From Sphaerodactylus townsendi (taxonomy: Eukaryota): DNA of 64,000 nt. This document shows, one piece after another, positions 1,687 through 56,800 of this stretch; the stretch's first letter is position 1; each line of letters starts with the position of its first letter. A model generated the notes under the pieces. That model was given only the letters and a program-made list of their open reading frames with translations. It was not told the origin of the DNA and did no database searches. Location: NCBI RefSeq assembly GCF_021028975.2, contig NC_059425.1, positions 192,076,001-192,140,000 of the forward strand, read 5' to 3'. Position numbers and translations under genes: made by a program.

Positions 1687-4600
1687 CTAGAGAAAAAAAC
1701 AACAGATTATTTTACCACTAATAGAGGATACGGCACATATTTCAACGCTGAGGTAGATGCCACTTTGCATAATATTCACTCAGACCTGGAAACCACCTGT
1801 GGCTCCCTGGGCACCCTTCCTCAGTGTGTGGCACCTGCCCCCTGTTCAGAGTGGGTAAAAAAGTCTGACTGGCCCCCCCACCCAGAAGAAAGAGCGAGCT
1901 GGCCACAGCAAGGTTGACATGTTGCTTTGTCCGCTACGGCCGGTGAATGCTGCTCCACGTGCCATGGCAATCTCACTCGCTTGCCCAGGAGAGAGTAGGA
2001 AGACTGATAGGGAAGGCTGCCCTCACCCCAGGAGTCAGGCGACTCTTTGGGGACATGGAAATTGCAAATGTCCCTCTTCACAAGCCACCAGGTAACCACC
2101 ACTGAGCCTCAAACTATTCCTACTGGGAAACATCCTTCTAAACAAGAAACAGGTTGTGTTCCAACCCTACACTTTATTATTTAAAGTACCTGTCTAAGTT
2201 CCAGTGGAGGTGGTACTGGAATGGAAGAAGACCATGTGTCACAGCAACAGAGTACCGTGCTCCCAACAGCTACTCCTCCCGCCTATTGACCCAAAAGTAT
2301 GCCATGACCAACAGCACTGAAAGCCACTAACATGTTCAAGAATGCCAAAGGGCATTCTTCTTCTTATCATCTGTGGGGCAGCTGAGGCGGCCTGCTTCCA
2401 GGTCTTAAGGCAGACTACGAAGGATCTGGATCATCAGGCTCAGGTAACAACAGCCTGGAACTGAGCCACCCCCATTCAGTTCAAGCACTTCGCTCAACAA
2501 GATTATTTGTGACTGACCTGCCTATAATTGCTCAGAGAGGTTTTAAGGCAGGTCTCGCATCCACACCCTTCAAGGAAGTCTGAATCTTCCTCTCTCCGTT
2601 CACCACTTCCTCTCTGAACCAGCCCTTGCGACCTCGTTGTCAGGAGCCCAGATGGGCAAGGGAGCTGGAACAGCACCCCCCCCCCCGGCCCCAAAATGTT
2701 CACATCCACAAGGGCACAAGGTCAACTTGCATTCATCCAAACAAGAGTAATGAGAATGTGCTCTGAAATCCTATAACTGGGCTACTAAAACTCTGGAGCC
2801 TAAGACAGTAGAGAAAAATGTGCAACTGTATCTACAAAAGGTCCTGTAAGCATGTAACAGGGACCAACCAAATTTCTCAAATGAAGAAGCTGCATTAGAA
2901 CTCAAAAATAACTCTGCTGGGCAACTATCCACCTCTGCCCTCTGAGGAACACAGGCCCACCCTCACAGCCACTCAGCAGACAAAAGGTGGACCTACTCAT
3001 TTTCAGCTTGATTCGCCCCAGGTTTTCACTTGGGCCCTTTCCGCAAGGGCCAATTAAACTGAGATAAACCCGGTAAAAAACCTGGGTTGGGGGAGAACTC
3101 TGCACGGATCCCGATCCTAATCCACTCCGCGTTCCCCCCCAACCCAGATTTTTTGACAATCGCGTTTTATGTGCGATTCTTTAGTTTTAATGCGACTTGC
3201 AGCCGGGGCAGAGCAAATGGAATTGCATATAACGTGATTCTCAATGACCCCTAACCCTGGCTCTCATCTGTGGAGCCATGCAGGGGAAACGGGCTGTCTC
3301 ATGGCCCCGGGGGGTGGGGGTGGGGGTCAGTCTNNNNNNNNNNNNNNNNNNNNNNNNNNNNNNNNNNNNNNNNNNNNNNNNNNNNNNNNNNNNNNNNNNN
3401 NNNNNNNNNNNNNNNNNNNNNNNNNNNNNNNNNNNNNNNNNNNNNNNNNNNNNNNNNNNNNNNNNNNNNNNNNNNNNNNNNNNNNNNNNNNNNNNNNNNN
3501 NNNNNNNNNNNNAGGTGTGTGCCCTGGTCAATGAGAAAGCCAGCTGTGCGAAGGGGCCGAGGCGAGGGCGGGTTCATGTAACCCACCTTCCCCCTGCTTT
3601 TATTGGTCCGTGCAGAAAGGGCCTTGCTGTGTCTGTCAGCCAACCAAGCACCCTCCTAGGTCAAAGCACTGAATGAGTTCTACAACAAGGAAGGGATTCA
3701 CAAGAGGGATTGAGTCAGCTGTCTAGGTTATTCCACACATTGTCCTGGACTACCCTCCATGCTAGCAGGAACACACACACACACACACACACACCCCTGA
3801 GCAAGATGTGAGGTCAGGCTCATTGTTTAACTGAATATGCTGGTATTTTCGCTTAACTTACTGCCATACGTCGCCAAAACAACTTCAAGAGCACAGGCCA
3901 GCAAAGAGACATGGAAGATGTTGTTGTTCAAAAGTTTGCTGCAAAAGAGTAAAAAAAGGAAGTCTCAGTAGTATGTTTAAACAGCAAAGAATCCTGAAGG
4001 TGTGTCTGACCAGCGTACCTGAAGTTGTGAATTGACAGTCGTTTTTCTTCCTGGAAAAGAGGCAGAGAATGAAGGTATATTTTAACATACTAAAAAAAAT
4101 TAACAACAACAAATGTATGAATTGTGTACTATGGTAGCCTACCGATTTTAAGATAGATTCCATCACTCTGTAGTATAATCGTACTCCAAGTCTGTACCTC
4201 TAAAAATAACGATGCAAAGAAACAGTGAGCTGAGTACTCAGCTTCTCATGCACACATCACGGGGTGGGTGGGTGGGGACGGGGGACTTACCTTGCCGGAA
4301 AAGCTAGAGCAATTAGCTACGTAAACTAGCTTGACTCTTTAAACTAGTCAAATCAAACTATGATTTTTTTTAAGCTCCAGAAGGCTGGGGCACTAAGCTA
4401 AAAGCAGAACAGAGTTTATAAAGGAAATGGACATTAAGTTTAGCAACACGCACGAGAGGGGCAATGAAAAAGTATCAACAGAATGGAAAAGGCTGGGAGC
4501 TGATGGCACTTTTGAAAGGGGGATGTTACAGGAGTTAGCGTTTTTGGCTTAGTAGTCAAGCATCAGAGGACTGCACGGATCAACAGAAATACGGAGCAGG

Positions 4601-7600: not shown

Positions 7601-10600
7601 ATAAAATTTAAAACTAGTAGAATTCAAATCATTCTTACCGGACAGGGGTCTGGGGAAGCGCACCCGGGGGATTTTCATCAGCATTGTTTTTTGTTGGTGT
7701 TCTCTCCAACTGCAAACTTCACAAGGGCAAAAAATGTACCTTCTATCAATGTTTTTTCAATACAAGACCTCACATTTATTTTCCAAACAAGATTTCTAAA
7801 CACCCTTCTTTCCTTTTCCATGTTCTCCTTCTGGCCAGGTTCCTTGTATGTCTTGGAAATGGAATTCCATTCTATTTCCACCTCCCTCTCATCTCAAGTT
7901 CTTTGAAGGTTTATTCTCTTAGTATGTACTGCTTGCTTGTGTGAATGCAGAACCAACCTTTTCCCCAAAAGCATCGTGACGTTCTGTGGTTATTTTTTTT
8001 ACATTATTTTAAAGAAGATGTTATAATTCACATGGTTCTGCTCACTGTCATCTTCTCTGACCTAGCTGAGATGTGACTCAGCAATGCAACAGGAAATCAC
8101 ACAACTAGAACGAATTGAACAATTGCATTCAGTAAAGGAAAACTTGCTCCAACAAACCTTCAGAATGTTAGTTATCAATGGAGTAATCAAATCTGATGGC
8201 CAGTTTACAAGATACTTTGGAGGAAGATGGAAGGCTCGAAGGATCTCCTTTAGACCCCATAATTCAGAACAGTAACAACTCATGGAAAATCTATTCATAG
8301 TAAAATTGTAACTTGATCTATTGTAAATAAGTGAACAATACAATTGAAGGGGCCCCTCTCCATCACCCTCCTGCCCACCACCCCTCTTGGTGCCCTCTTA
8401 GGTTACCCCGCTGCTTTTCGGGGGGGAGGAGGTGCTGTCCGTTTTGGGAACCACTGCATTAGTTTGATCAGGCATTGAGCAGGGGTTGGACTAGACCGCT
8501 TGTGCGGCCCCTTCCAACTTTGTGATTCTGTGAGAGATGCAGGAAGGATTCCTTCCCTTCTGTTCAGCCTTCTTCCAAATAAACAGCTCTTCATTTAGAG
8601 GAAAAGACATTAGAGGACCTTAGGCTGGTGGAAGGCTTCAAACCTGGCTGAATACAGGGGTAAGATACAGGTCAACTCTTGTTTTAAATCTGCAAATAAG
8701 ACCCAGGGCGAACGTTCACAGAAATGGTTGCTGCAACAGACATTCGGCTGCTTTCCCTTCCTCCCAGCTGTCTGCCGTTTGTCCTCCCTGAGGCTCTGCA
8801 GAGCCTTGCAAACAAAATGCTTTGGACAACACAAACAAATGTAACAAGATCTTTTTTTGTAAATATTATTATAGTGCAACGCTTTTCAAAGCATCTCATA
8901 ATTTTCATCTCATTGGCTGCTAGAACAGTTCTGGTTTTGGCTAAGGGATTATGATTCCCCGGTTCAACTCCCAGCAACTCCCATTAAAAGGATCAGGTGA
9001 TACGAAAGACATCCGTCTGAGACCGGGAGAGTCACTGTCTGGCAGAACAGATAAGTCTGGCCTCAACAGCCCAATAGTTTGAGGCAGCTTCGTGTGTTCA
9101 AAGGCCACCCATTTCCCCTTGTAGCACAGTTGGAGATGCCTGCAAAGTTAGGTACATATCACGCAAAACAAAAGATTACCATTCTGTGTGATCCTGTAGA
9201 GTTTCATCATTCTCCAGAAACAATCTGGCATCGATATCCTTGCTGCTCAGATACATTTCTTCATATTTGCTTGATATACTCTCAACCTTTGGTTTTCCAA
9301 AACAACAATAATTCTTTTTTAAAAAAACCCAATGCTGATGAAACCCTGAGATCTTTGCTGTTCTTCAAAGTGACTTCATTTAATATACTTCAGTTAGTTT
9401 AAAGAAAAAGCATTCATAAACTCAGAAATCCACCTGGCAGGAACTCTACCTGACACTGAGATTTGTTTATCTTCAGCTTTTTTAATAAGTTGTTACTAGT
9501 AGCTACTTGAAAACTTATCAAAACATCAGAAGTATGGAGAGCCTACAGCAGTGGTGGCGAACCTTTGGCACTCCAGATGTTATGGACTACAATTCCCATC
9601 AGTCCCTGCCAGCATGGCCAATTGGCCATGCTGGCAGGGGCTGATGGGAATTGTAGTCCATAACATCTGGAGTGCCAAAGGTTTGCCACCACTGGCCTAC
9701 ACAGTGACTAGAAGAAGAAATAGGGCTCACTGCAATTCTCTTTCAAGATAGTATATTATACTCGTATTACCTCTGAAAGTCCACTGGAAGCTGTGATGCC
9801 CACAGAATTCAGGAATGGAATAAAACTAGTGAAGTAAACATTTTTCACCTTAAAAAAAGCAAATCAGAAAAAGATCAGCACTATGGAAAGTTTCCTTTTA
9901 TTATTATAACTTCCATACACAATATATTGTAATGAATGAGATGTGCTAATATGTTTAGAAACTCTGCATTGCTGCCATTGGTACAAAAGGGCCTCTTGCA
10001 GTAACGTTTTGATACTCTGCACCGTTTGTGTACCCCATCCTGCGAAAGACCTTAAAAGAGAGCCAGCGTTGTGCAGTGGTTAAGACCAGGTGGACTCTAA
10101 TCAGGAGAACTGGTTTTGATTCCCCACTCCTCCACATGTGCAGCAGACTCATCTGGTGAATAAAATGTTTTTCCCCACTCCTACATTCCTTCTGGGTGGC
10201 CTTAATATAAGTGAATATAAAGAATGAGCCAGAAACAATATGGATATGAAGAAAAATTGCTCTGCCTGGCTCAAAAGAACAGAAATAAAACCACAAACTT
10301 TAATAGAAATGATTAAGAACATAACAACATAAAAACAAGCCTGCTGGATCAGACCAGAGTCCATCTAGTCCAGCACTCTGCTACTTGCAGTGGCCCACCA
10401 GGTGCCTTTGGGAGCTCACATGCAGGAGGTGAAAGCAATGACCTTCTGCTGCTGCTGCTCCCGAGCACCTGGTCTGCTAAGGCATTTGCAATCTCAGATC
10501 AAGGAGGATTAAGATTGGTAGCCATACATAGACTTCATAAATCTATCCAAGCCCCTTTGAAAGCTATCCAGGTTAGCAACCATTAACCACCTCCTGTGGC

Positions 10601-13600
10601 AGCATCTTCCAAACACCAATCACGCATTGCATGAAGAAACGTTTCCTATTATTAGTCCCAATTCTTCCCCCCAGCATTTTCAATGTATGCCCCCTGGTTT
10701 TAGTATTGTGAAAGAGAAAAATTCCTCTCAATCCTATCCCCCCTCAGATGTCTCCTCTCCAAACTAAAGAGTCCCAAACGCTGCAGCCTCTCCTCATAAG
10801 GAAGGTGCTCCAATCCTTCAATCATCCTCGTTGCCCTTCTCTGTACTTTTTCTATCTCTTCGATATCCTTTTTGAGATGTGGCGACCAGAACTGAACACA
10901 GTACTCCAAGTGCGGTCGCACCACTGCTTTATATAAGGGCATGACAATCTTTGCCGTTTTATTATCAATTCCTTTCCTAATCATCTCCAGCATAGAGTTT
11001 GCCTTTTTCACAGCTGCCATGCATTGAGTTGACATTCCCATGGAACTATCAACTAAGACGCCCAAATCCCTTTCCTGGTCTTTGACTGATAGCTCTGACC
11101 CCTGTAGCGTGTATATGAAGTTTGGATTTTTTGCCCCTATGTGCATCACTTTACATTTTGCTACATTGAACTGCATTTGCCATTTCTTAGCCCACTCACC
11201 TAACTTATAAAGCTCTTCGCTTGGAGCTCTTCACAATCCTTTGCGGTTCTCACCACTCTACATAATTTGGTATCATCCGCAAACTTGGCCACCAAGCTAC
11301 CCACCCCTACTTCCAGGTCATTTATGAACAGGTTAAAGATCACTACATCCAATAACCCAAATATCAACAACGGTGACAATAACGCAATACATGAACAACA
11401 CTAGCAGACAAAAAAGGGATCCCAAAATATGCACAAAAGATCATGAGTCTCTGTATAAATAATGTCCCTTCAGTGAAAACCTCGCAATTCAACTGTAAAG
11501 CATCAAACAGACCTCCAGTAATGGAATCCACTGAAATGAAATTAATGCTTGTCCTTCATCAAAACATTGAAATATCCAATTAGTCAGCTGCTTGTTGCTC
11601 TAATAATAGAAGCAAAGTACTCCCATTGCCAGATCTCACCTGGATGCCATCATTGGCATATAGTCAGATCACTTCCAGGCTGCAGCCTACCCCCTAGGGT
11701 TAGTTTTAGAAAAAAATTTGAATATTGTAATGTTTTGATGAAGGACAAACACTCTTTCCACTTCAGGGATTTGACTGCTGGAGGTCTGTTTGATTGGCCA
11801 TGCCAGCAAGGGCTGATGGGAATTGTAATCCATGATCATCTGAAGTGCCAGAGTTGGACACCCCTGATTTAAACCATTCCTCATGCTGTCAATCAAAGGG
11901 TTGCTATCAGCCATGCTGGCAGGGGTGGATGGGAATTATAGTCCATGAACGTCTGGGGCACTAGAGTTGGACACCCCTAAGCTAAGGAAAACAAAACACC
12001 GGGTCAAAAATTCAGTTGGCCTCACCTCATCCAAATTACAACCATGTTCTTTGCAAAGCTCCTCAATAACCTTCATATCTGTATCAGTTTGTTTTGATGC
12101 ACGTAAACTTCTGCTCTGACGTCTAGGAGTGCGCATTGAGCCATTAGCAGACAAAGCACTGATGGCAGATTCTAGAATAAAAAAGCAAGCACTGGGTCAA
12201 CAGATACCACCCTAATGGACTGTGTCCTATCATGCCAGGCAGCCAATAGCAATATATACTGTCGGCGGACGCAGCTTTGCACCACAGGCTAAGGACACAA
12301 CTCTCTGTTGCCCTCTCTTCTGTCAAATAGCTCACCAAAACCCACCCTTTGGATTAACCCAACAGCATATGTAGATATCCCGATTACCTTTCTTTTCTCA
12401 AACCACATCAAGAACCTCATTTTTTTAAAAACTGCAATTAAAAAAAAATCTCAACTCCCCCCTCCCCACATGCTTTCAGCAATCATTATGATCACTGCAG
12501 GTCTTTCAGAATAGCCTCCACGCAGAGAAAGCGGTTTTGTTTGTTTGGTGGAACAAGAGCAATTGGGAGATTGCAAAGTTCTCAAGAGACAACACCATCA
12601 GTTTCTGAGAAAGGGAACTCTGGCGTGCAAAAGCTCCCCCCCCCCCCACCCCCCAAAATCTTGGTGGTCCTGAAGGTGCTACCGGATTCAAATCTCGCCG
12701 TTTCACTGCAGACCAAGACAGCTACCCTCTGAAACACCAGCAATGCTGTGCAGGTACAGTAAGAATGCCACTCCTATAATATTCTCCACTTTCCTGGCAT
12801 GACTCGAGCTCAAAACGTTCAATTTTCCTCTGTTTTTTACATCAGCATAAGGGCAGAAGTGCCTTGCAGCCACATAAGTTCAGAATTGACTATAGGTCCG
12901 TGGTGGCGAACCTTTGGCACTCCAGATGTTATGGACTACAATTCTCATCAGCCCCTGCCAGCATGGCCAATTGGCCATGCTGGCAGGGGCTGATGGGAAT
13001 TGTAGTCCATAACATCTGGAGTGCCAAAGGTTCGCCACCACTGCTATAGGTGCAGAAGAAAAGGACAAACGATACTGTGGAGAAAACTTGGTTCCATTCA
13101 AACATCCTGTCAGTGTCTCTTAATATGGAATACAGTTATGAAGCATGCCAGACAAAACACAATGAATATCTTAAGTAGGCCACTTTTGATGTATGGACAC
13201 ACCAATTTCTATTCCTTTCCATTTTCTATTCCTTTCCAAAGACTATTCCTTTCCATTTTAAAAAGATTAAATCTTTACTGTATGGTTCCTTGAGTGCTGC
13301 AGGAGGCAACAGCTTGATAAAATAATCAAGAACACAAAGCAGCAGCTGGAAGGAAATAACCAGGTCGTCTTCCACCGGTAATACTTTCCCTGAAAATAGG
13401 AAGAGGACACTGTGTTAACCGGGCAAAAATATCTCATTGTACAATTATCAGAACATCTGTAATATTTCAAGTTTAGGAATATCACACCAGCACATTAGGT
13501 TGGAGTCAAAGAACAACAACAGCAACAACAACAAAAGCAGAACTCTGTTCATGGGCCGCTGCCGCTGCCTGTCCTCTGCTCCTTCCTGCCCCACTTGGAA

Positions 13601-23981: not shown

Positions 23982-24480
23982 GACGGGCGCCGGGCAGGGG
24001 ACGCTGCGGGCGGGGTCCGACACGCCCATCGCCCCGCCCACACTCTCCCACGGCGGGAAAACGCCGCTCGCCCCGCCCCCGAGCTCTCGTCACTTCCTGT
24101 TTCTTTCCGGGAGGAAGGGGAGACACCGCGTCGGCCTCGCGGCTCACTTCCGCGTTCCCCCCCCCGAAGGCGTCTTCTCCCTCCAACTCCGGGGCGGGGG
24201 ATTCCGGGAGTTGTGAAGCGGGCGGAGCTTGTGGAGGAAAGGGGGAGGGGCGGACCACAGGCTCCACCTCCTTCTCGACAGCCATTTCTTCCAAGAAATA
24301 GGGAGGGAGGGACCGGGAGACCTGCAAGCCCTTCCTCCTCCCGGGGATTGGCAGCCTTTGGAGGGGCGCTTTGGAGACCCAGAAGGAGTTTTCCATGGGA
24401 ACGGCGGGGGGTTTGTGTGTGTCAGAGGTGCCCCCGACAGGGAGACTGAGTCGGTCCCGCCGGGAGGTTGGCACTGGCTG
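23100..24480 (-). promoter_or_regulatory. RB1 promoter CpG island with ETS/CRE composite, GC box and E2F site
   Basis: Very GC/CpG rich. Minus strand GGAAGTGACG (24088-24097), GGGGGCGGGG (24071-24080), TTTTCCCGCC (24052-24061), second GCGGAAGTG (24145-24153). Island boundaries approximate. Confidence 0.85.
23920..23981 (-). CDS. RB1: RB1 exon 1 coding part ([21 protein letters not shown])
   Basis: ATG in cgtcATGg context inside a CpG island, downstream of ETS/CRE/E2F motifs; donor AG|gtcagc in phase 2 matches exon 2; sequence is divergent; an in-frame upstream ATG exists at 24027-24029. Confidence 0.8.
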
Positions 24481-24987
24481 TAAGGAACCTGAAAGGACCA
24501 GACTTAAAGTAACTGTAACAGTTCTTTATTTCTTAAACTTCCACGATGCACAATACAGGAAATGCAGACTCTGACCTTTCCCCACCAGACCGCTGCTTTT
24601 ACGAGCTTCTCTGGCCCCCGCCCACAGCACAAAGTAAATTCCCCCAAAACTCCAACCTCCAATGTAGGTTCTCACGCGAACAGAAAGTAAGACTCCACAT
24701 GCATATAGTAAGCACAGATAGGCAGCAAGGTTAACGATAACAGCAATCCTGGGCACGCAGCCCAGTCCGAGGGATGTTACCAAGGCCAGGCTGGTGAACA
24801 GAAAACAGAAATCAATCCACAACCTTACAGGCACCTTTGCACCCTTGAGGTGAGGGGAAACGTCCGCCCGCCCTGGTTGCCCTCCGGGGATTCCAGCCGT
24901 CCTCTGCAGATCTCGCTTCCCATTTGATTGAGTTTGAAACTGGTTTGCAGGGGTGGTTTTTTCCTAATTAAAAGATATTAATCAAAA

Positions 24988-25300
24988 TCCTGGAGCACCT
25001 TCCCTATGAGGAGAGGCTGCAGCGTTTGGGACTCTTTAGTTTGGAGAGGAGACGGCTGAGGGGGGATAGGATTGAAGTCTATACAATTATGCATGGGGTA
25101 GAAAATGTTGACAGAGAGAAATTTTTCTCTCTTTTCTCACAATACTAGAACCAGGGGGCATTCATTGAAAATGCTGGGGGGAAGAATAAGGACAAATAAA
25201 AGGAAACACTTCTTCACACAGTGCGTGATTGGTGTTTGGAATATGCTGCCACAGGAGGTGGTGAGGGCCACTAACCTGGATAGCTTTCAAAGGGGCTTGG
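24988..25300 (+). mobile_element. CR1 LINE fragment
   Basis: [26 protein letters not shown]...TRGHSLK...FFTQ, near-identical to the other CR1 copies in the window. Confidence 0.92.
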
Positions 25301-25544
25301 CACTAAGATTGATCCATGGAAAGGGATTATCAAGGAAGAACTCAATGACCAAATGGCCGATTGGCTAGAAAAAATTGAGCGGGAGTCCCTGAAACCTCGC
25401 CAAAAAGTTGAGTTCATCAACAAATTTGTGATTCCACAGATATTGTATATCTTGGATCACTCAGAAACCGGAACAACCTACCTCCACAATATCGATGATC
25501 TCATAAGATCAAAAGTTAAAAAGTGGTTACACCTTCCCCAATCA
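25296..25544 (+). mobile_element. R2-type non-LTR retrotransposon RT/thumb fragment
   Basis: Open frame LGTKIDPWKGIIKEELNDQMADWLEKIERESLKPRQKVEFINKFVIPQILYILDHSETGTTYLHNIDDLIRSKVKKWLHLPQS; LG-x3-DPW, LKPxQK, DHSE and WLHLP motifs as recalled for vertebrate R2. Confidence 0.8.
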
Positions 25545-25553
25545 GTAAATATG

Positions 25554-25721
25554 TTCCTGCTGGGTGACCTTGGGCTAGTCAGAATTCTTTCAAGACTCTC
25601 TCAGCCCCACTTACCTCAACAGGTGTCTGTTGTGGGGAGAGGAAGAGAAAGGAGCTTGAAAGCCACCTTGTGTCTCCTTACAGGAGAGAAAGGTGGAGTA
25701 TAAATCCAAATTCTTCTTCTT
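25554..25721 (+). mobile_element. SINE 3' half
   Basis: GCTGGGTGACCTTGGGCTAGTC...CAGGAGAGAAAGG..(CTT)n. Confidence 0.75.
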
Positions 25722-25970
25722 CATTTTATTTATAATCCTTCCCAACCTATGGATTGACAGGACTGAAAATTGAATTTAAGAAGTATTATCACTACTTGTT
25801 AGCATTCTCTACTTGATAGCACTTCTTTCTGGTTATCTCCATATGATGCGATTTACTTGCATTAACCTTAATTGTCATATCATGGTAAATTCACAGAAAA
25901 GTTTTCCATGTACAGGAAGGTGTATTAAGAAAATGAAATGCAAAAATTTTAGACAAACAGATTTGTAATA

Positions 25971-25976
25971 TTTATT
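25971..25976 (-). terminator. Probable ITM2B polyadenylation signal
   Basis: AATAAA on the minus strand in an AT-rich stretch about 850 nt past the stop; another at 25725-25730. Confidence 0.45.
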
Positions 25977-26540
25977 TTCCACTGCACATAATAGCTTATA
26001 TACATGTTAGTAACCTTAAGTTACTGTGTAGTTTTGTTACAGCTAACACCTATTAATATACAGTACATGGCAAGAATCAAACTTAAGTAGGATTGCATTA
26101 AAACATACACAAATGCCAAGAAATTGCACTTTTTAAAATTCTTTTCCAATCTCTGTAAACCACCTGTCACTACTAATATGTTATTAGAACTCTCAAGTGT
26201 TGAAGTTAATTTGAATACATGTCTTGTTTTTAATTCAGAGGGATCAATCTGTCCAATTGTGCAGAAGAAGGGAGGTATTCCATACCTCCTGCTACTTTGT
26301 CAAGGTTCATTACATGAAATGCGATAACTACTGCCATTATACAATTGCGATTCAACATGTAAAACCACTCTTTAAAAATATGGAAATTATTTTAAAAATC
26401 AGGAGAAAAAAAAAGTTGCTTTTAGCTATGAAGGAAGGTCCACTACTTGCATAGCCCATATAAAATAAAAATCACAGCATATGAGAGGAAGGGCTGGCCA
26501 GAGAGGCTCTTTCAGTCTTCGGCTGCAAATGTCATCTCTT

Positions 26541-26814
26541 ACTGGTTCTGGTGGGTTTTCCGGGCTGTGTGGCCGTGGTCTGGTGGATTTTGTTCCTAAC
26601 GTTTCACCTGCCTCTGTGGCTGGCATCTTCAGACATGTATCACAGAGAAAAGTCTGTTACATGACTTCCCTCTGTGATACAGCTCTGAAGATGCCAGCCA
26701 CAGATGCAGGCGAAACGTTAGGAACAAAATCCACCAGACCACGGCCACACAGCCCGGAAAACCCACCAGAACCAGTTGAATCCGGCCGTGAAAGCCTTCG
26801 ACAATACATTGAAC
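26541..26814. mobile_element. Penelope-derived long inverted repeat in ITM2B 3' UTR
   Basis: About 107-bp arms (26541-26647 and 26670-26776), GTGAAAGCCTTCGACAATAC end, hammerhead cores, 14-bp flanking duplication. Confidence 0.82.
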
Positions 26815-42986: not shown

Positions 42987-43854
42987 GGCCGGCGGCGGCG
43001 CTCGGGCTGCAGCTGCTCGGGCGGCGGGGGCGGGCGGCGGCGCTGCTGCTGCTGCTGCTGCTGCTGGGGCCTTCCGGGGACGGCGGCGGCGGCGGGAGGC
43101 GCTCTGAGGCTCCGCCCCGCCGCTTCCCTTCCCGGCGAGCCGCAGGGAGCCATTCAGACGTGCCCCGCCTGCTGCCAGTCCCGTGTCCGGCGGGCCGGCG
43201 GGCGAGGGTCCCGCCACGACCGTCGGTGGAGCGGGGGCGGATTCGAACCCGGGTCTCCCTGGCTGGGGTCCGGCAGTGACGGCGGGGCGTCTGCCTCAAG
43301 TCACCTGGCGGCGGAGCACCTGCGCTCGGCCGGATCTGCGTTCCCCGCTTCCCTTCTCCTCCTGCCACTCCAGCCCCATCGAGGACGACGCACAAAACCT
43401 CTTCCGTCTCTGTATTTGCAAGACTCCGTCCTGCGGGTGGCTTTCCTGTCGTCCCTGAACTCTGCTCCGGGCGGCTCCTTTTCACTCCAGGAGCTCCCCT
43501 AAGCAGCAGTCAGGAGAGGCTGGAGAAGTTCACCCGGGGCTGCGTTTCTGTGGGATATTCAAAGAGGTTCCTGAAGCAGCAGAAGTCAAAATTAGTCCTG
43601 CAGGGATGCTGAGGATTGCTTTTGTTTCCAATACACTTGACTTCGCTAGAAGGAGGGAAGGGTTACGTGGGGGCGAAACCAGAAATGCGAGACTAGCGAA
43701 GGCACAGTTCATACGACGTCTTGTCTAATTCTATGTGACCGGATGATCCCTCGCAATTCTGGTGGTGATCTGTCCTCCAATCCATCCTGCAGCCGGAACA
43801 TCCCAGAAATGTGCCCCAGAATCAGCCGGCCCTCATTAGAAAGTCCATTGCCTT

Positions 43855-43950
43855 TATACCGATCGCTATAGCGATCGCCATACCGATCGATATAACAATC
43901 GCTATACCGATCGCTATATCGATCATTATAACGATCGCTATACCGATGGC
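43855..43950. repeat. Self-complementary 12-bp tandem repeat (TATANCGATCGC) x8
   Basis: Directly visible; CpG-dense. Confidence 0.92.
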
Positions 43951-46679
43951 TACAGCTGTCAGGATGGCGGCAATGGCCATTCTACCCATAGCAGGTCCCG
44001 GGAGGGGTGCCTGGGGGGGCGGGGCAGGAAAGAGGGGTCGGCTCTCCCCGGCCACTGCGATCCCGCATCAGGAGGTGAGGGGAGGGGGGAGGCAGCCAGG
44101 GCAGGTGTGCGGAAGTTGGGGATGAAAAGCAGCGTGCTTCAGGGGGGGGATCTCTGTGGGGGTGGGGGGGTGCCGTCCCAGGGGTCCAGATCTCCCCAAG
44201 CAGCACCCCTGTTCTCCGGGGAAGGGGCTGCTGCCGGCGATGCCGTTCTGTAAAGGTGCGGAGGAAGGCCTCCCACGGAGGCAGGAGCTTGGCCTCCCAC
44301 CTGAAGCCAAAGGGGGGGAGGGAGGGGCCCTTGGGCGGGGAGGCTGCTGCTGCTGCTGCTGCTGCTGGAGGTTCGTGGTGGTCGCTGGGGGGGACTCTGG
44401 CCGTCCTCCCTCCCTCGCTCGCTGGCCCTGGTGGGCGGGGAGGGGCGGGCAGTGGAGGAGCGCTGGGCTGGTTGGTGCTGCGGGGCGGTGGGCCCGTCGC
44501 TTGCAGGGGGGCAGGAGGAGGGGGCAGCTGCTGGGGGGGCAGTTCTGGTCTCGGGAAAGGGAGGCGGGCAGGGGGCTGATCTGGTCCGCCCCTTGGCTCA
44601 TTCCGCAGCAGCAGCAGCAGCAGCAGGAGGAGGAGGAGGAGGGCGGGAGGAAGGCTGGCTGGCTGCTTCTACCTGGGATCCTGTGGGCTGAGTCCGTTGC
44701 CTTTTCCTTTCCAAGTGGTCACAATGATGTGCCTTTTGCGGACAGTGCCCTCCGCGACGCCCCGCACCCCTCCTCCCTGGGGCCACGGAAAAGAGCCTCT
44801 GACAGTGTTTTCCTCCCACTGTGTTCTGATCACCCCTCCCCCTCCCTCCCTGGGGCCACGGAAAAGAGCCTCTGTTGTGTCCTGCTGCAGGTTCAAAGAG
44901 ACGGTTTCTCCCGCCACAGACCCCGCCCCTTGTCCGGGGTGGCAGGAGGAGGGGACTGCTGAGGACAGCACTGCTAGGCATGGGCGGGGAGGGTCCTGGG
45001 ATCCTTTCTCGGGTCTGTTCCGCTTCCCGGGCAGCCAGACCTTGCAAAGGGCGCCCCTGGACTCTGCGGAGGGAGAAGAGCCGCCCTTGCCCGCATCTGT
45101 GTGTCCCGCTTCCCTCCTCCTCTCTCCTCCACAGGTGCCGCCTCCTTCCTTCCCCCCACCCCACCCGCGGAGGCGGCAGCCGGGCGGCCCTCAGCAGCGT
45201 CCAAAGCCACAAAGCTGGCCATGCCTCCCATTAAGTGTTGGGCGCCCCCTCCTGAAGGGCGGCTGTGCCAGGAGATCAGGGTGCCACTGACCCGGGCCCA
45301 GGGCACCCAGGAAGTGCTGCCAGGTGGAGCGCCGTCATCCACAACACCCGGCAGGCGCCCAGAAGAGGGGGGATGGGAAGGGTGAAACGGGCATTCAGAT
45401 CTAAGCAGCAGAAACATGCCGACGTGGGGTCACTGTAGCACCCACCCAACTCCGTCTTCTCTCCCAGTAGTGGTGAGGCTGAGATTCCTGAAGAAGTTGC
45501 AAAGCGTCTTCTACAGATATCTGCACGCTCTTCTTCAAAAGAGATCTAGCTGTGGGCCTTTCAATACCTATTTATACTTTTTAACATTGTGAAAATATGC
45601 TCTTACCCATTTTTAATGTATAATGTTTTATAGAAGATTTAACTTTTTTTTTCTTTGGATAACATCTTTACTTTTGTCGATTTACTGCCACCTCTGATTA
45701 GAGATTCCTGGTTATATCGTAAAAAACTTTTTAATTTATGCCTAATAAAAGTGATTGTATACAAACTGTTTACGAGCTGAAATCTCCCGTGGCGGGAGGG
45801 GGGTGGGCCTCAAGGGCTGCCCAGCAGGACTCCAGTGTGGGGATTTGAACCTGCGGCCTGCCCGCTTTCACTTGCGGAAGGGCTCCTGGTGCTGGCCTAG
45901 GAAAATAAATGGAATCATCTCCCGTTGAGCTAACAATGGGAAGTCACTCCAATTGGCCAGTGATCTTCCGGCCATGCAGAAGGTCCCAGTTCAATCCCCA
46001 CCCTCTCCAGCTACAAGAGCCAGGTGAGGTGAAAGAGCTGCTGCCAGTCTTGCTCAGCGGCAGCACCGGATCTCCTGGGATTACAAGTGATCTCCAGGCA
46101 ATACAGACCAGACTGCCAGGAGAAAATGGCAGCTTCCACTATGGTGTGATGCCACCTCCACCCCCAAGTCTCCAGGGATGTCTCCACTTGAGATGGATTG
46201 GGGAGACTTGGGGTGGAGGAGGTTTGGACAGCGAGGGTGGGGATGCTTGGGGCGGGGGAGGGGAGGGCTTTCGCAGGGCCTGTTGAGCAGAGGGTGCGAA
46301 GGCACCCACTGCTCCACCAGCTGGGATGGGCTGCTGGGGGAGGTGGGGGGGGACTGGGGGCCCCCAGCAGAGGGAGCCAGGCTTGTTCCTGGGAGGGGGA
46401 GATGGAATGTCACTCAGCAATTGGCAGAAGGTTTGACATTGCAACATTTCATCGCTTAGGCAATTATAGGTCAGGATTTTTATGCACTGCCTTATTATTG
46501 TGTGCACTATTGAGTGTGGTACTTTGATACAAGAGCTTTTATGCCAAAGTGTGTTTTCACTTTCAGACTTCCAAAGGGATGTGGGGAGCAGGGCGAGGTC
46601 GGCACTCGGACCCAGGTGGGGCTTTCTGCAACAAAGACAGTCCGGCATGCTTTGTTCTGCGGCAGAGGAATATATAATC

Positions 46680-53850: not shown

Positions 53851-56800
53851 ACGTAGCTAGCCAGTTAGTACGTAATTTGTTGCTTTAATTCCAAGTTGTT
53901 GTTGTTGTTATTATTTATTAGTTTTGTATACCGCCTTCCCCTGGAGGGCTCTGGGCGGTGCACAACATATTGATACGTAGAAGTAGAGCACAGTTTAAAG
54001 CATAACAAAATACAACTATGAGATATTTCCACCCCCACAGTCACCCCCATCTTACACTTGTGTTCTTTTACTGTCTCTGGAAACTGAAACCATTGGGGGA
54101 GTTTGTCAGACCTTGTCAGCCATACAAGAGTATTCAGCCTCAGGAATGTGCAGCTCTCCCTTGTGTCTTGGATACTGTTAGGCAGAATTCCACTGGGTTG
54201 TGGAGCTTCTGTTTATTTCGGAGAACTGACCCCCTTTCCTGGTCCTGTACTTTGCTTCAGGGAGCTGATTGAAATACTGGCCATTTCAAGGAACCAGAAA
54301 CTTGCACAGTCTGGGGAAGAGGCCCAGGTAAGCAAACTGCTTAAAAATCTGAAAGGAGATATTATGTCTGTTCAGTCTGTAATCCTTCACTAGGCATGCG
54401 GACCAGATCTTAAAGTATCAGCAGCTGATTGATATCCCTATACAGCTTTCATAAGAACATAAGAACAAACCAGCTGGATCAGACCAGAGACCATCTAGTC
54501 CAGCTCTCTGCTACTCACAGTGGCCCACGAGGTGCCTTTGGGAGCTCACCTGCAGGAGGTGAAAGCAATGGCCTTCTGCTGCTGCTGCTCCTGAGCACCT
54601 GGTCTGTTAAGGTATTTGCAATCTCAGATCAAGGAGGATCAAGATTGGTAGCCATAGATCGACTTCTCCTCCATAAATCTGGCCAAGCCCTTTTTAAAGC
54701 TATCCATTTTGCTACATTGAATTGCATTTGCCATTTCTTAGCCCAATCACCTAATTTATTAAGGTCTGCTTGGAGCTCTTCGCAATCCTTTGTGGTTCTC
54801 ACCACCCTACATAATTTGGTATCATCCGCAAACTTGGCCACCACACTACCCACCCCTACTTCCAGGTCATTTATGAATAGGTTAAAGAGCACTGGTCCCA
54901 AAACGGATCCTTGGGGGACACCACTCCTTCTCTGTACTTTTTCTATCTCTTCGATATCCTTTTTGAGATGTGGCGACCAGAACTGAACACAGGACTCCAA
55001 GTGCGGTAGCACCACAGCTTTATATAAGGGCATGACAATCCTTGCAGTTTTATTATCAACTCTTTTCCTAATTATACCCAGCATAGAGTTTGCCTTTTTC
55101 ACAGCTGCCATGCATTGAGTTGACATTCCCCTGGAACTATCAACTAAGACACCCAAATCCTTTTCCTGGTCTGTGCCTGATAGCACTGATCCTTGTATGT
55201 GAAGTTTGGATTTTTTACCTCTATGTGCATCACTTTGCATTTTTCTACATTGAATTGCATTTGCCATTTCTTAGCCCAATCACCTAATTTATTAAGGTCC
55301 TCTTGGAGCTCTTCACAATCCTTTGTGGTTCTCACCACCCTACATAATTTGGTATCATCCGCAAACTTGGCCACCACACTACCCACCCCTACTTCCAGGT
55401 CATTTATGAATAGGTTAAAGATCACTGGTCCCAACACGGATCCTTGGGGGACACCACTCCCTACATCTCTCCATTGTGAGAACTTCCCATTTATACGCAC
55501 CCTTTGTTTCTGTTCCTCAACCACTTTTTAATCCATAGGAGGTCTTCCCCTCTTATGCCTTCATTGCTGAGTTTTCTCAACAGTCTCTGGTGAGGAACTT
55601 TGTCAAAAGCCTTTTGGAAATCCAAGTAGACAATGTCCACTGGTTCCCCCTCATCCACATGCCTGTTTACGCTCTCAAAGAACTCTAGTAAGTTTGTAAG
55701 ACAGGACTTGCCTCTGCAAAAGCCATGCTGGCTCTTCCTCAGCAGGTCTTGCTTTTCAGTTCCTGCTAATCTGTTAAAATGGCCAATGTGATCATTTGTT
55801 TTGGGGGCAGATCCTGGAGCTGCTGATTCAGAGAGATCAAGAGTTCCAGGAATTGATGAAACTGGGTCTGGAACAAGGGAAGATTCACCGGGAGATGCAG
55901 CTTTTGGAAGAAGTGGTGGGGAAGAGGGACAGCGACATCCAGCAGCTTCAGAAGCAACTGAAGGAAGCGGAGCACATATTGGTGAGTCCATCAGTGACGC
56001 TGCTACCATCCAGGGTGCTTGCAGACATTCACACTCCTGAGTCAGGCATGCTAAGGTGATAAACAGTCACTGGAGAGAAAGGCAGGCTTATAAATGCTTT
56101 AAATAGGTGCCTTAATATTCTGTGAGTTCCCTGTAAGGGAGTTCACATGTGTCCATTACAGTTGATTATGTCACAACTTGCCTTTGTAAAATGTTCACCC
56201 CAAATGAGTCTTTCCCTGGCATCTGGAGTTCTGTCTCAAACCTTTCTTTGAATCTCGTGAGAGATTTCTTCAAATTTTCAGTGCCTGCTCCCTTTCCCAA
56301 CTCCCTTTCTGCAGGTTACTGTTTAGTCCCATTTCTTCATGTCTTGTACCTGCACTGAGGGTTGGCTCCCATGCGCCTGCCTCCCGTGCGCCTGTGCTGA
56401 ACGAAAGTTTCCTTTACCTGGTCTTCTTATCCTTTAGATAGTGGGGTGAAGCTGGGGCAGAAGAATCGCTGAATAAATAGGTGCTATTACAGCAGCACCA
56501 TTTCATTGCTACTGTTAAATATTCCTCCAGCCCTGAGGCTAGAAATACTCTTTGTCAACAAGTGGATGATGACTTCTTAAAGCCCCAGTCCAATTTCTTG
56601 GCTTTTCAGGCAGAAGTTTTAATTCAGTTATGATGACCAGAAACCTGGAAATGTTCTCTGAATTGCAAATTGATTTTTAGAATCTAAATCTGTTTGTTTA
56701 CCAGAAATATTGTTTCATAATTAGGCCACAGCTGTTTATCAAGCAAAAGAAAAACTGAAGTCAATAGAAAAGGCAAGGAAGGGTGAGTATTTCTGTTTCA

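What the first reader, a model, noticed from the sequence alone, without database searches (positions are those of the whole stretch)
24988..25721. Stop-free R2 retrotransposon fragment outside rDNA, in a CR1-R2-SINE chimera upstream of RB1
Seen: an 83-codon uninterrupted frame (25296-25544) joined to a CR1 through a shared CTTGG and followed within about 10 bp by a SINE 3' half, all on the same strand. Its motifs (LG..IDPW, WLEKI, LKPRQK, IPQILY.LDHSE, IR..VKKWLHLP) match what I recall of the RT end and thumb of vertebrate R2. Established: R2 inserts site-specifically in 28S rDNA. Inference: this genome hosts, or recently hosted, an R2 whose RNA was captured by template switching during retrotransposition or break repair. 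rDNA arrays are often missing from assemblies, so this could point to an undescribed R2 lineage of interest for gene-insertion tools.
Basis: partly seen in the sequence, partly recalled or inferred. Interest (0 to 1): 0.7.

Follow-up and report, generated by a model that had tools for sequence, protein, structure and literature searches.

The report
Dead gecko R2 scrap between repeats
This is a real 253-base scrap of an R2 jumping gene, likely dead, lying beside a lizard's RB1 gene; related organisms carry a longer copy of it and show no sign of the two joins, so the three-part chimera was likely stitched together later by DNA deletion or repair rather than by one jump.

Summary
Observation confirmed. 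25296-25548 encodes the RT end and thumb of a vertebrate lineage-A R2 (E 2e-19 to solved turtle and finch R2; best identity 49%). It is fused to a CR1-type LINE through a 5-nt microhomology and to a SINE 3' half, about 1 kb upstream of RB1's putative start codon. A second organism (B) has the same fusion, so it is not a misassembly.

The one-step RNA template-switch reading is not supported. Organisms C and D show no fusion but hold a near-identical longer copy that continues as R2 on both sides. The SINE end is at this locus in B, C and D; the CR1 start is in C but not D. The parts arrived at different times and the joins came last. The fragment shares CpG-type decay with C's long copy, so it likely descends from a dead genomic copy, not an active RNA. 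Best explanation (about 0.6): deletions collapsed an older R2 relic in place; not shown directly.

R2 is already known from a gecko and many squamates. Remaining interest: a divergent gecko R2 lineage with several apparently fixed stray copies. No active or 28S-linked copy was seen.

The parts
24991..25300 (+). CR1-type LINE fragment (end of ORF2), 5'-truncated and lacking about 230 nt of its normal 3' end and tail
   Evidence: 93% and 78% matches to window copies at 60.8-61.1 kb and 10.5-10.8 kb; those copies run on about 230 nt past CTTGG to an 8-nt repeat tail; a sister copy at 54.6-56.0 kb encodes RT motifs. The name CR1 is recalled from those motifs; no call names it.
25296..25300 (+). 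5-nt microhomology CTTGG shared by the LINE and the R2 copy
   Evidence: table 7; chance about 0.005
25296..25548 (+). R2 lineage-A ORF fragment (RT end and thumb), 84 codons plus 1 nt, no indels; carries CpG-type decay changes
25549..25549 (+). one base assigned to neither side (untemplated, or a diverged SINE base)
   Evidence: R2 match ends at 25548; SINE similarity from about 25550 is inferred and from contig ends at 25579/25580
25550..25722 (+). 3' half of a SINE with a (CTT)n tail, lacking about 130 nt of its head; resembles Squam3B
   Evidence: 79-81% matches to four window copies; tail type from PMC7983390 passages; no consensus comparison made
3830..3964 (-). context: stop-to-stop frame holding an RB1 coding exon (pocket A); putative start codon of the gene at 23981-23979(-) is my inference
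   Evidence: start codon read

Best explanation
A 253-nt piece of a likely dead lineage-A R2 copy is fused between a LINE stump and a SINE stump, and the fusion likely arose when deletions removed the DNA on both sides of it from an older, longer R2 relic that would have sat at this locus. Order of events: (1) an R2 copy landed outside rDNA and began to decay, and a SINE was already near the RB1 promoter, before organism D split off; (2) a CR1-type LINE inserted at 24990 after D split; (3) after C split, a microhomology-mediated event (end joining, or replication template switching of the FoSTeS/MMBIR kind) joined LINE to R2 at CTTGG and R2 to the SINE almost bluntly, removing at least about 465 nt on the left (230 LINE + 235 upstream of the fragment) and about 610 nt on the right (479 + 130). 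Shown: identity, junctions, distribution of parts among runs. Inferred: that the long copy of C and D lies at this locus, the repair route, and that the fragment has no function.
For: Fusion in one contig in X1 (0 differences in 309 nt) and X2, organism B (1 in 310). Depth 0 on both joins in X3, X4 (C) and X5 (D); there a 967-nt contig matches 25296-25548 with 1 difference and runs on 235 nt and 479 nt (2 of 2 C runs), and D has a 96% copy. Loose ends read as R2 in frame: MVEPEKVEKY before LG and TNSLLYTRAR after V (read by hand), like ...GESEKY and TCNGFIYTKTRDGG in turtle R2. In B none of 6 of 6 laid contigs is a near-identical long copy and the fusion contig is unbroken: one form replaces the other. 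Depth relative to the 3' flank is alike for B's fusion (1.67) and C's long copy (1.71) (weak measure). SINE 3' end joined to the same flank in X1, X2, X3, X5; CR1 start joined to the 5' flank in X3; in X5 that flank continues 411 nt into other sequence (table 8). Of 5 identified differences from D's near copy (of 6), 4 are CpG-type transitions and 3 change the protein; 3 are shared by the window and C's long copy, turning a FAIPR-like motif into FVIPQ, where R is found in 85 of 142 relatives and Q in 8. No target-site duplication. Microhomologies of 1-5 bp and templated pieces mark replication-based rearrangements (PMC5120786, passages).
Against: No contig links the long R2 copy of C or D to the RB1 flanks; D's 411-nt continuation does not reach the fragment (no such record among the X5 records shown, 8 of 13). 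Contigs show presence, not absence, and a filter drops records. Several junction contigs fall short of the tool's 31-letter bridging rule (25-30 letters on the LINE side of the left join; 27 for C's CR1 start; 24-30 for the SINE end), although that is what a contig ending in a repeat would look like. All three parts share one strand, which is a 1-in-4 coincidence under this model and expected under an RNA chimera. Two nearby deletions within about 1% divergence are needed unless they were one event. X1 lacks all paralogous copies, so organism A's own state is untested.
Confidence: 0.6

Rival explanations
1. Patch from elsewhere: a deletion between the resident LINE and SINE was repaired by copying 253 nt from the long dead R2 copy at another locus (DNA template), and that donor was later lost in B or missed by assembly.
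For: Same junction signatures and same staged history. No contig places the long copy at this locus. Templated insertions of hundreds of bases from other loci are described (PMC5120786, passages).
Against: Needs an extra loss: B's fusion contig is unbroken and none of 6 laid contigs is the donor.
Confidence: 0.22
2. RNA capture during break repair: a cDNA or transcript of R2 was used to bridge a break between the resident LINE and SINE.
For: Same strand for all parts; open frame; R2 RT jumps templates using microhomology (PMC13586686, passage).
Against: The fragment carries three changes shared only with C's long copy, two of them CpG-type and protein-changing at conserved positions, so the template would have to be a transcript of a dead copy; the donor would again have to be lost in B.
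Confidence: 0.1
3. One retrotransposition event with two template switches (SINE RNA, then R2 RNA, then CR1 RNA) inserted the whole chimera at once.
For: Same strand; 3' end is a natural SINE tail; microhomology at one join.
Against: The SINE end is at the locus in C and D and the CR1 start in C, while neither shows the inner joins. No target-site duplication (weak: Squam3 rarely has one, PMC7983390 passage).
Confidence: 0.04
4. Assembly artefact.
For: Junction contigs reach only 25-32 letters into the repeats; X1 may be the window's own source sample.
Against: A run labelled as another organism (X2) holds the same two joins in one contig with 1 difference.
Confidence: 0.02
5. R2 inserted into this CR1 at a 28S-like site (as earlier scan notes suggest for sharks) and was trimmed afterwards.
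For: The LINE 3' part missing here holds a 9-nt word also found just downstream of the 28S R2 site.
Against: That word occurs 2 times in the window and 33 of 100 shuffles reach 2; D has a decayed near copy although it lacks this CR1.
Confidence: 0.02

Closest known systems
Vertebrate lineage-A R2: Platysternon R2 (PDB 9nl2), zebra finch R2Tg (9dou, 9nl3), zebrafish RT BAC82594.1
   Same: RT end and thumb align without gaps at 43-47% identity; flanking motifs continue in the longer copies.
   Different: Only 84 codons; no 28S flanks; at most 49% identical to any protein found (P0171, unnamed); unresolved long branch in an 84-column tree.
Squamate R2s: R2Em of leopard gecko (PMC5035012, passages) and lizard lineage-A R2s such as PBla (PMC13188248, sections 5, 8, 11 and Table S2 rows)
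   Same: Same host order; lineage A is reported in lizards and PBla is active in vitro.
   Different: Those are 28S-linked. Sequence comparison over this region was not possible (supplement cells cut at 400 characters; R2Em sequence not seen).
Non-site-specific R2NS families of flatworms (PMC5035012, passages)
   Same: R2-clade protein outside 28S.
   Different: R2NS has copies over 98% identical to consensus; here few copy types, 85-93% like the fragment, one with a frameshift.
Microhomology-mediated complex rearrangements (MMEJ, FoSTeS/MMBIR; PMC5120786, passages)
   Same: 5-nt microhomology at one join, near-blunt other join, island of retained or copied DNA.
   Different: Here inherited across organisms and inferred from contigs only.

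Membership tests
R2 (lineage A) | RT/thumb homology closest to R2 proteins | tested here: met
   E 2e-19 to solved lineage-A R2; 12 of 17 long library hits checked carry three N-terminal zinc-finger patterns, as do 13 of 23, several of the rest being partial proteins
R2 (lineage A) | insertion at the 28S rDNA target | tested here: not met
   This fragment is flanked by a LINE and a SINE; no Rfam match in the window. It is a derived fragment, not an intact insertion.
R2 (lineage A) | 28S flanks on the longer copies in the genome | not testable with these tools
   No genome held; only 30 letters of loose ends shown
R2 (lineage A) | three zinc fingers plus Myb domain, C-terminal restriction-like endonuclease, 5' ribozyme | not testable with these tools
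   Not within the fragment; no other R2 piece in the window by tblastn
Utopia / NeSL-type elements | closer similarity to Utopia than to R2; U2 snRNA target; no Myb | not tested
   No named Utopia protein was among the hits looked up; no direct comparison made
R2NS (non-site-specific R2) | many dispersed, near-identical copies with unrelated flanks | tested here: inconclusive
   29 contigs laid in 4 runs, at least three copy types at about 1-2.5 times flank depth; element ends not seen
Single-event retrotransposition chimera | all junctions of the same age | tested here: not met
   Outer junctions present in C (both) and D (SINE only), inner joins only in A and B
Squam3B SINE | (CTT)n tail | tested here: met
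   PMC7983390 passages
Squam3B SINE | tRNA head, CORE part, L2-like 3' end matching the consensus | not tested
   Consensus not in hand

The most novel reading that the evidence does not exclude
This gecko lineage carries a long-branch lineage-A R2 (at most 49% identical to any protein found over this region) that stayed active for a long time and repeatedly inserted outside rDNA, so that its surviving copies are fixed chromosomal strays: an amniote R2 with relaxed or lost 28S specificity. Copies differ mostly at third codon positions (20 of 29 visible differences, p about 1e-4), so they come from different coding-active masters; a frameshifted copy is shared by B and D; none stands out at rDNA-like depth.
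Probability: 0.15. Interest if true: 0.6.

Novelty: new member of a known kind. Interest (0 to 1): 0.3.

Why it matters
As it stands, little: a dead fragment with no sign of function. It does mark a divergent gecko R2 lineage that I did not find in the 2026 survey's table, and it shows that a neat same-strand LINE-R2-SINE chimera can be built in stages by DNA rearrangement, which is a caution for reading such chimeras as template switches. If the stray copies prove to be true off-target insertions, they would be a natural record of R2 specificity in a reptile, relevant to R2-based gene insertion.

Tried and rejected
No whole genome held. Pfam: no family for the R2 peptide. Word-based protein searches with the peptide alone found nothing, so they say nothing on absence; the alignment search found 26 relatives, none above 49%. 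Metagenome scan: 135 pattern matches, none confirmed. ESM Atlas: only unnamed clusters, below the recognition mark. Tree of 71 rows on 84 columns: no supported placement (short proteins outside the top 16 were left out). No RNA holder listed. 28S-like word in the LINE 3' end: not above chance. Target-site duplication: best shared word is 6 nt and lies inside the SINE. Earlier-finding look-ups by sequence, by relatives and by one word set gave nothing. PMC13343379 and PMC13580325 gave no useful passage. Domestication considered and set aside: open frame is expected at this divergence and conserved residues have decayed. X1, X2 show no cover at 24885-24941; a hole proves nothing.

Full report
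Observation. The window holds a stop-free frame at 25284-25703. Its part 25296-25544 matches solved R2 proteins of turtle and finch at E 2e-19 to 3e-19 without gaps and the silkworm-type R2 at only 0.026. A full library scan gave 258 proteins at E up to 0.001, the best full-length ones 43-47% identical; named ones are Platysternon R2 and fish RT proteins. An alignment search added 26 proteins, best 49%. Most long hits carry three zinc-finger patterns (12 of 17; 13 of 23), the usual lineage-A layout. A tree on 84 columns does not resolve the position. No other R2 piece lies in the window and no rDNA. RB1 is on the minus strand; the fusion starts about 1 kb upstream of its putative start codon (inferred). 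The host is a gecko-type lizard by SINE tail type and earlier scan notes (unchecked).

Anatomy. 24991-25300 is the end of a LINE ORF (CR1 by recalled motifs; RT motifs in a sister copy). Three sister copies continue about 230 nt past CTTGG to a repeat tail; this copy does not. The SINE part, about 25550-25722, is 79-81% like four window copies and lacks about 130 nt of head. The left join has exactly 5 nt of microhomology (chance about 0.005); the right join is near blunt. No target-site duplication.

Is it real? Seven runs from four coded organisms in two studies hold the R2 stretch; I laid five of them (X1-X5). X1 and X2 each have one contig across both joins (0 and 1 differences). X1 may be the window's own sample; X2 is labelled as another organism. 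The contigs reach 25-30 letters into the LINE, short of the tool's 31-letter rule, and 31-32 letters past the R2 end.

History. Divergence from the window over the pieces seen is 0.3% (B), 1.0% (C) and 2.7% (D) (gaps ignored). C (X3, X4) and D (X5) have no depth on either join. C has a 967-nt contig with the fragment in its middle (1 difference in 253), D has pieces at 96%, and the loose ends read as R2 in frame on both sides. B shows no such long copy among 6 of 6 contigs laid. The SINE end is joined to the same 3' flank in X1, X2, X3 and X5; the LINE start is joined to the 5' flank in X3; in X5 that flank runs 411 nt into other sequence (table 8, which is heavily cut). So the SINE is oldest, the LINE younger, the inner joins youngest. 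That contradicts a single retrotransposition event. These junction contigs also fall 1-7 letters short of the bridging rule, and contigs cannot prove absence.

The fragment is decayed. I decoded one search's table by depth sums. D's near copy differs at 25409, 25410, 25429, 25433, 25438 and one unseen place; four are CpG-type transitions and three change the protein. Three (25429, 25433, 25438) are shared by the window and C's long copy against D's near copy and the more distant copies. Two of them turn an A and an R, the commonest residues in 142 relatives (53 and 85), into V and Q (24 and 8). The fragment therefore likely descends from a dead genomic copy. An open frame is expected at this divergence.

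The family. At 80% likeness, 29 contigs were laid in four runs (24 shown), none with an indel inside the stretch. At least three copy types appear: the near copy; one about 87% alike at about twice flank depth with intact motifs; and one whose loose ends show a changed KYLG motif and a 2-nt frameshift (read by hand), shared by B and D. Differences to the second type are mostly at third positions (20 of 29 visible of 32); over the 40 rows shown of 58, 19 are silent against 20-28% expected (the rows shown are the best supported, which may bias this). So R2 masters diverged under selection in this lineage and left a few copies that persist across organisms. No contig stood at a depth suggesting many rDNA copies, but depth is a poor copy measure, and an rDNA R2 at 1-3 copies or under 80% likeness would be missed.

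Mechanism. Best: an older R2 relic at this locus was trimmed on both sides by microhomology-mediated deletion, in one replication-switch event or two steps (0.6). The one-for-one exchange of long copy for fusion supports this; the missing link is a contig tying the long copy to these flanks. Rivals: DNA-templated patch from elsewhere (0.22), RNA capture (0.1), one-step chimera (0.04), insertion into CR1 at a 28S mimic (0.02), artefact (0.02).

What is known. PMC5035012 (passages) reports R2 by PCR from leopard gecko and a snake, truncated and internally deleted avian copies, and two non-specific flatworm families. PMC13188248 (abstract, sections 5, 8, 11, passages, searches of supplementary file 7) reports full-length R2 in many snakes and lizards, both lineages. 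In file 7 the terms gecko, Gekko, Gekkonidae, Eublephar, Paroedura, Heteronotia, Lepidodactylus, Correlophus and Diplodactyl gave 0; Euleptes (24 of 24 places) and Sphaerodactyl (7 of 24 seen) stood only in a U2 BLAST table; I saw 16 of 34 Squamata rows. Cells are cut at 400 characters and the other 15 supplements were not read, so closeness to lizard R2s is open. My seven paper searches showed no description of this locus; that is limited coverage. PMC5120786, PMC7983390 and PMC13586686 were seen as passages only.

Verdict. A real, decayed fragment of a divergent gecko lineage-A R2 in a chimera built in stages. New member of a known kind; interest 0.3. The boldest open reading, an amniote R2 with relaxed 28S specificity, gets 0.15.

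Noticed in passing
window 24479-24829: A 351-nt repeat with 7-nt inverted ends (TG...CA), like a solo LTR, about 500 nt upstream of RB1's putative start. Multi-copy in all four runs; C and D flank contigs start laying at 24839 and 24830 and carry 968 and 709 other letters before, so it looks like a young insertion absent there. Only a 3-nt flank match.
   Followed up: partly
run X1 on window 24600-26300: Small run (104 million letters) with uneven depth (21 at 24600, 87 on the fusion, 252 on 25693-26300) and none of the paralogous R2 copies; it may not be whole-genome DNA. If RNA, a divergent RB1 transcript could run through the fusion. Kind is not on record.
   Followed up: no
window 24040-24105: On the minus strand, GGAAGTGACG and TTTTCCCGC words upstream of the putative RB1 start, like the ETS/ATF and E2F sites I recall from the human RB1 promoter (recalled, not tested).
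   Followed up: no
window 26541-26776, 9549-9694, 12900-13041: Near-perfect fold-back elements (arms 71-114 nt); earlier scan notes describe Penelope fold-back stubs in this genome.
   Followed up: no
window 54629-55527: The LINE copy here has an internal duplication of its RT segment and lacks part of ORF2 before the 3' end.
   Followed up: no
window 43843-43974: 12-nt tandem repeat in a GC-rich region, possibly a coding RS/RD-type repeat on the minus strand.
   Followed up: no
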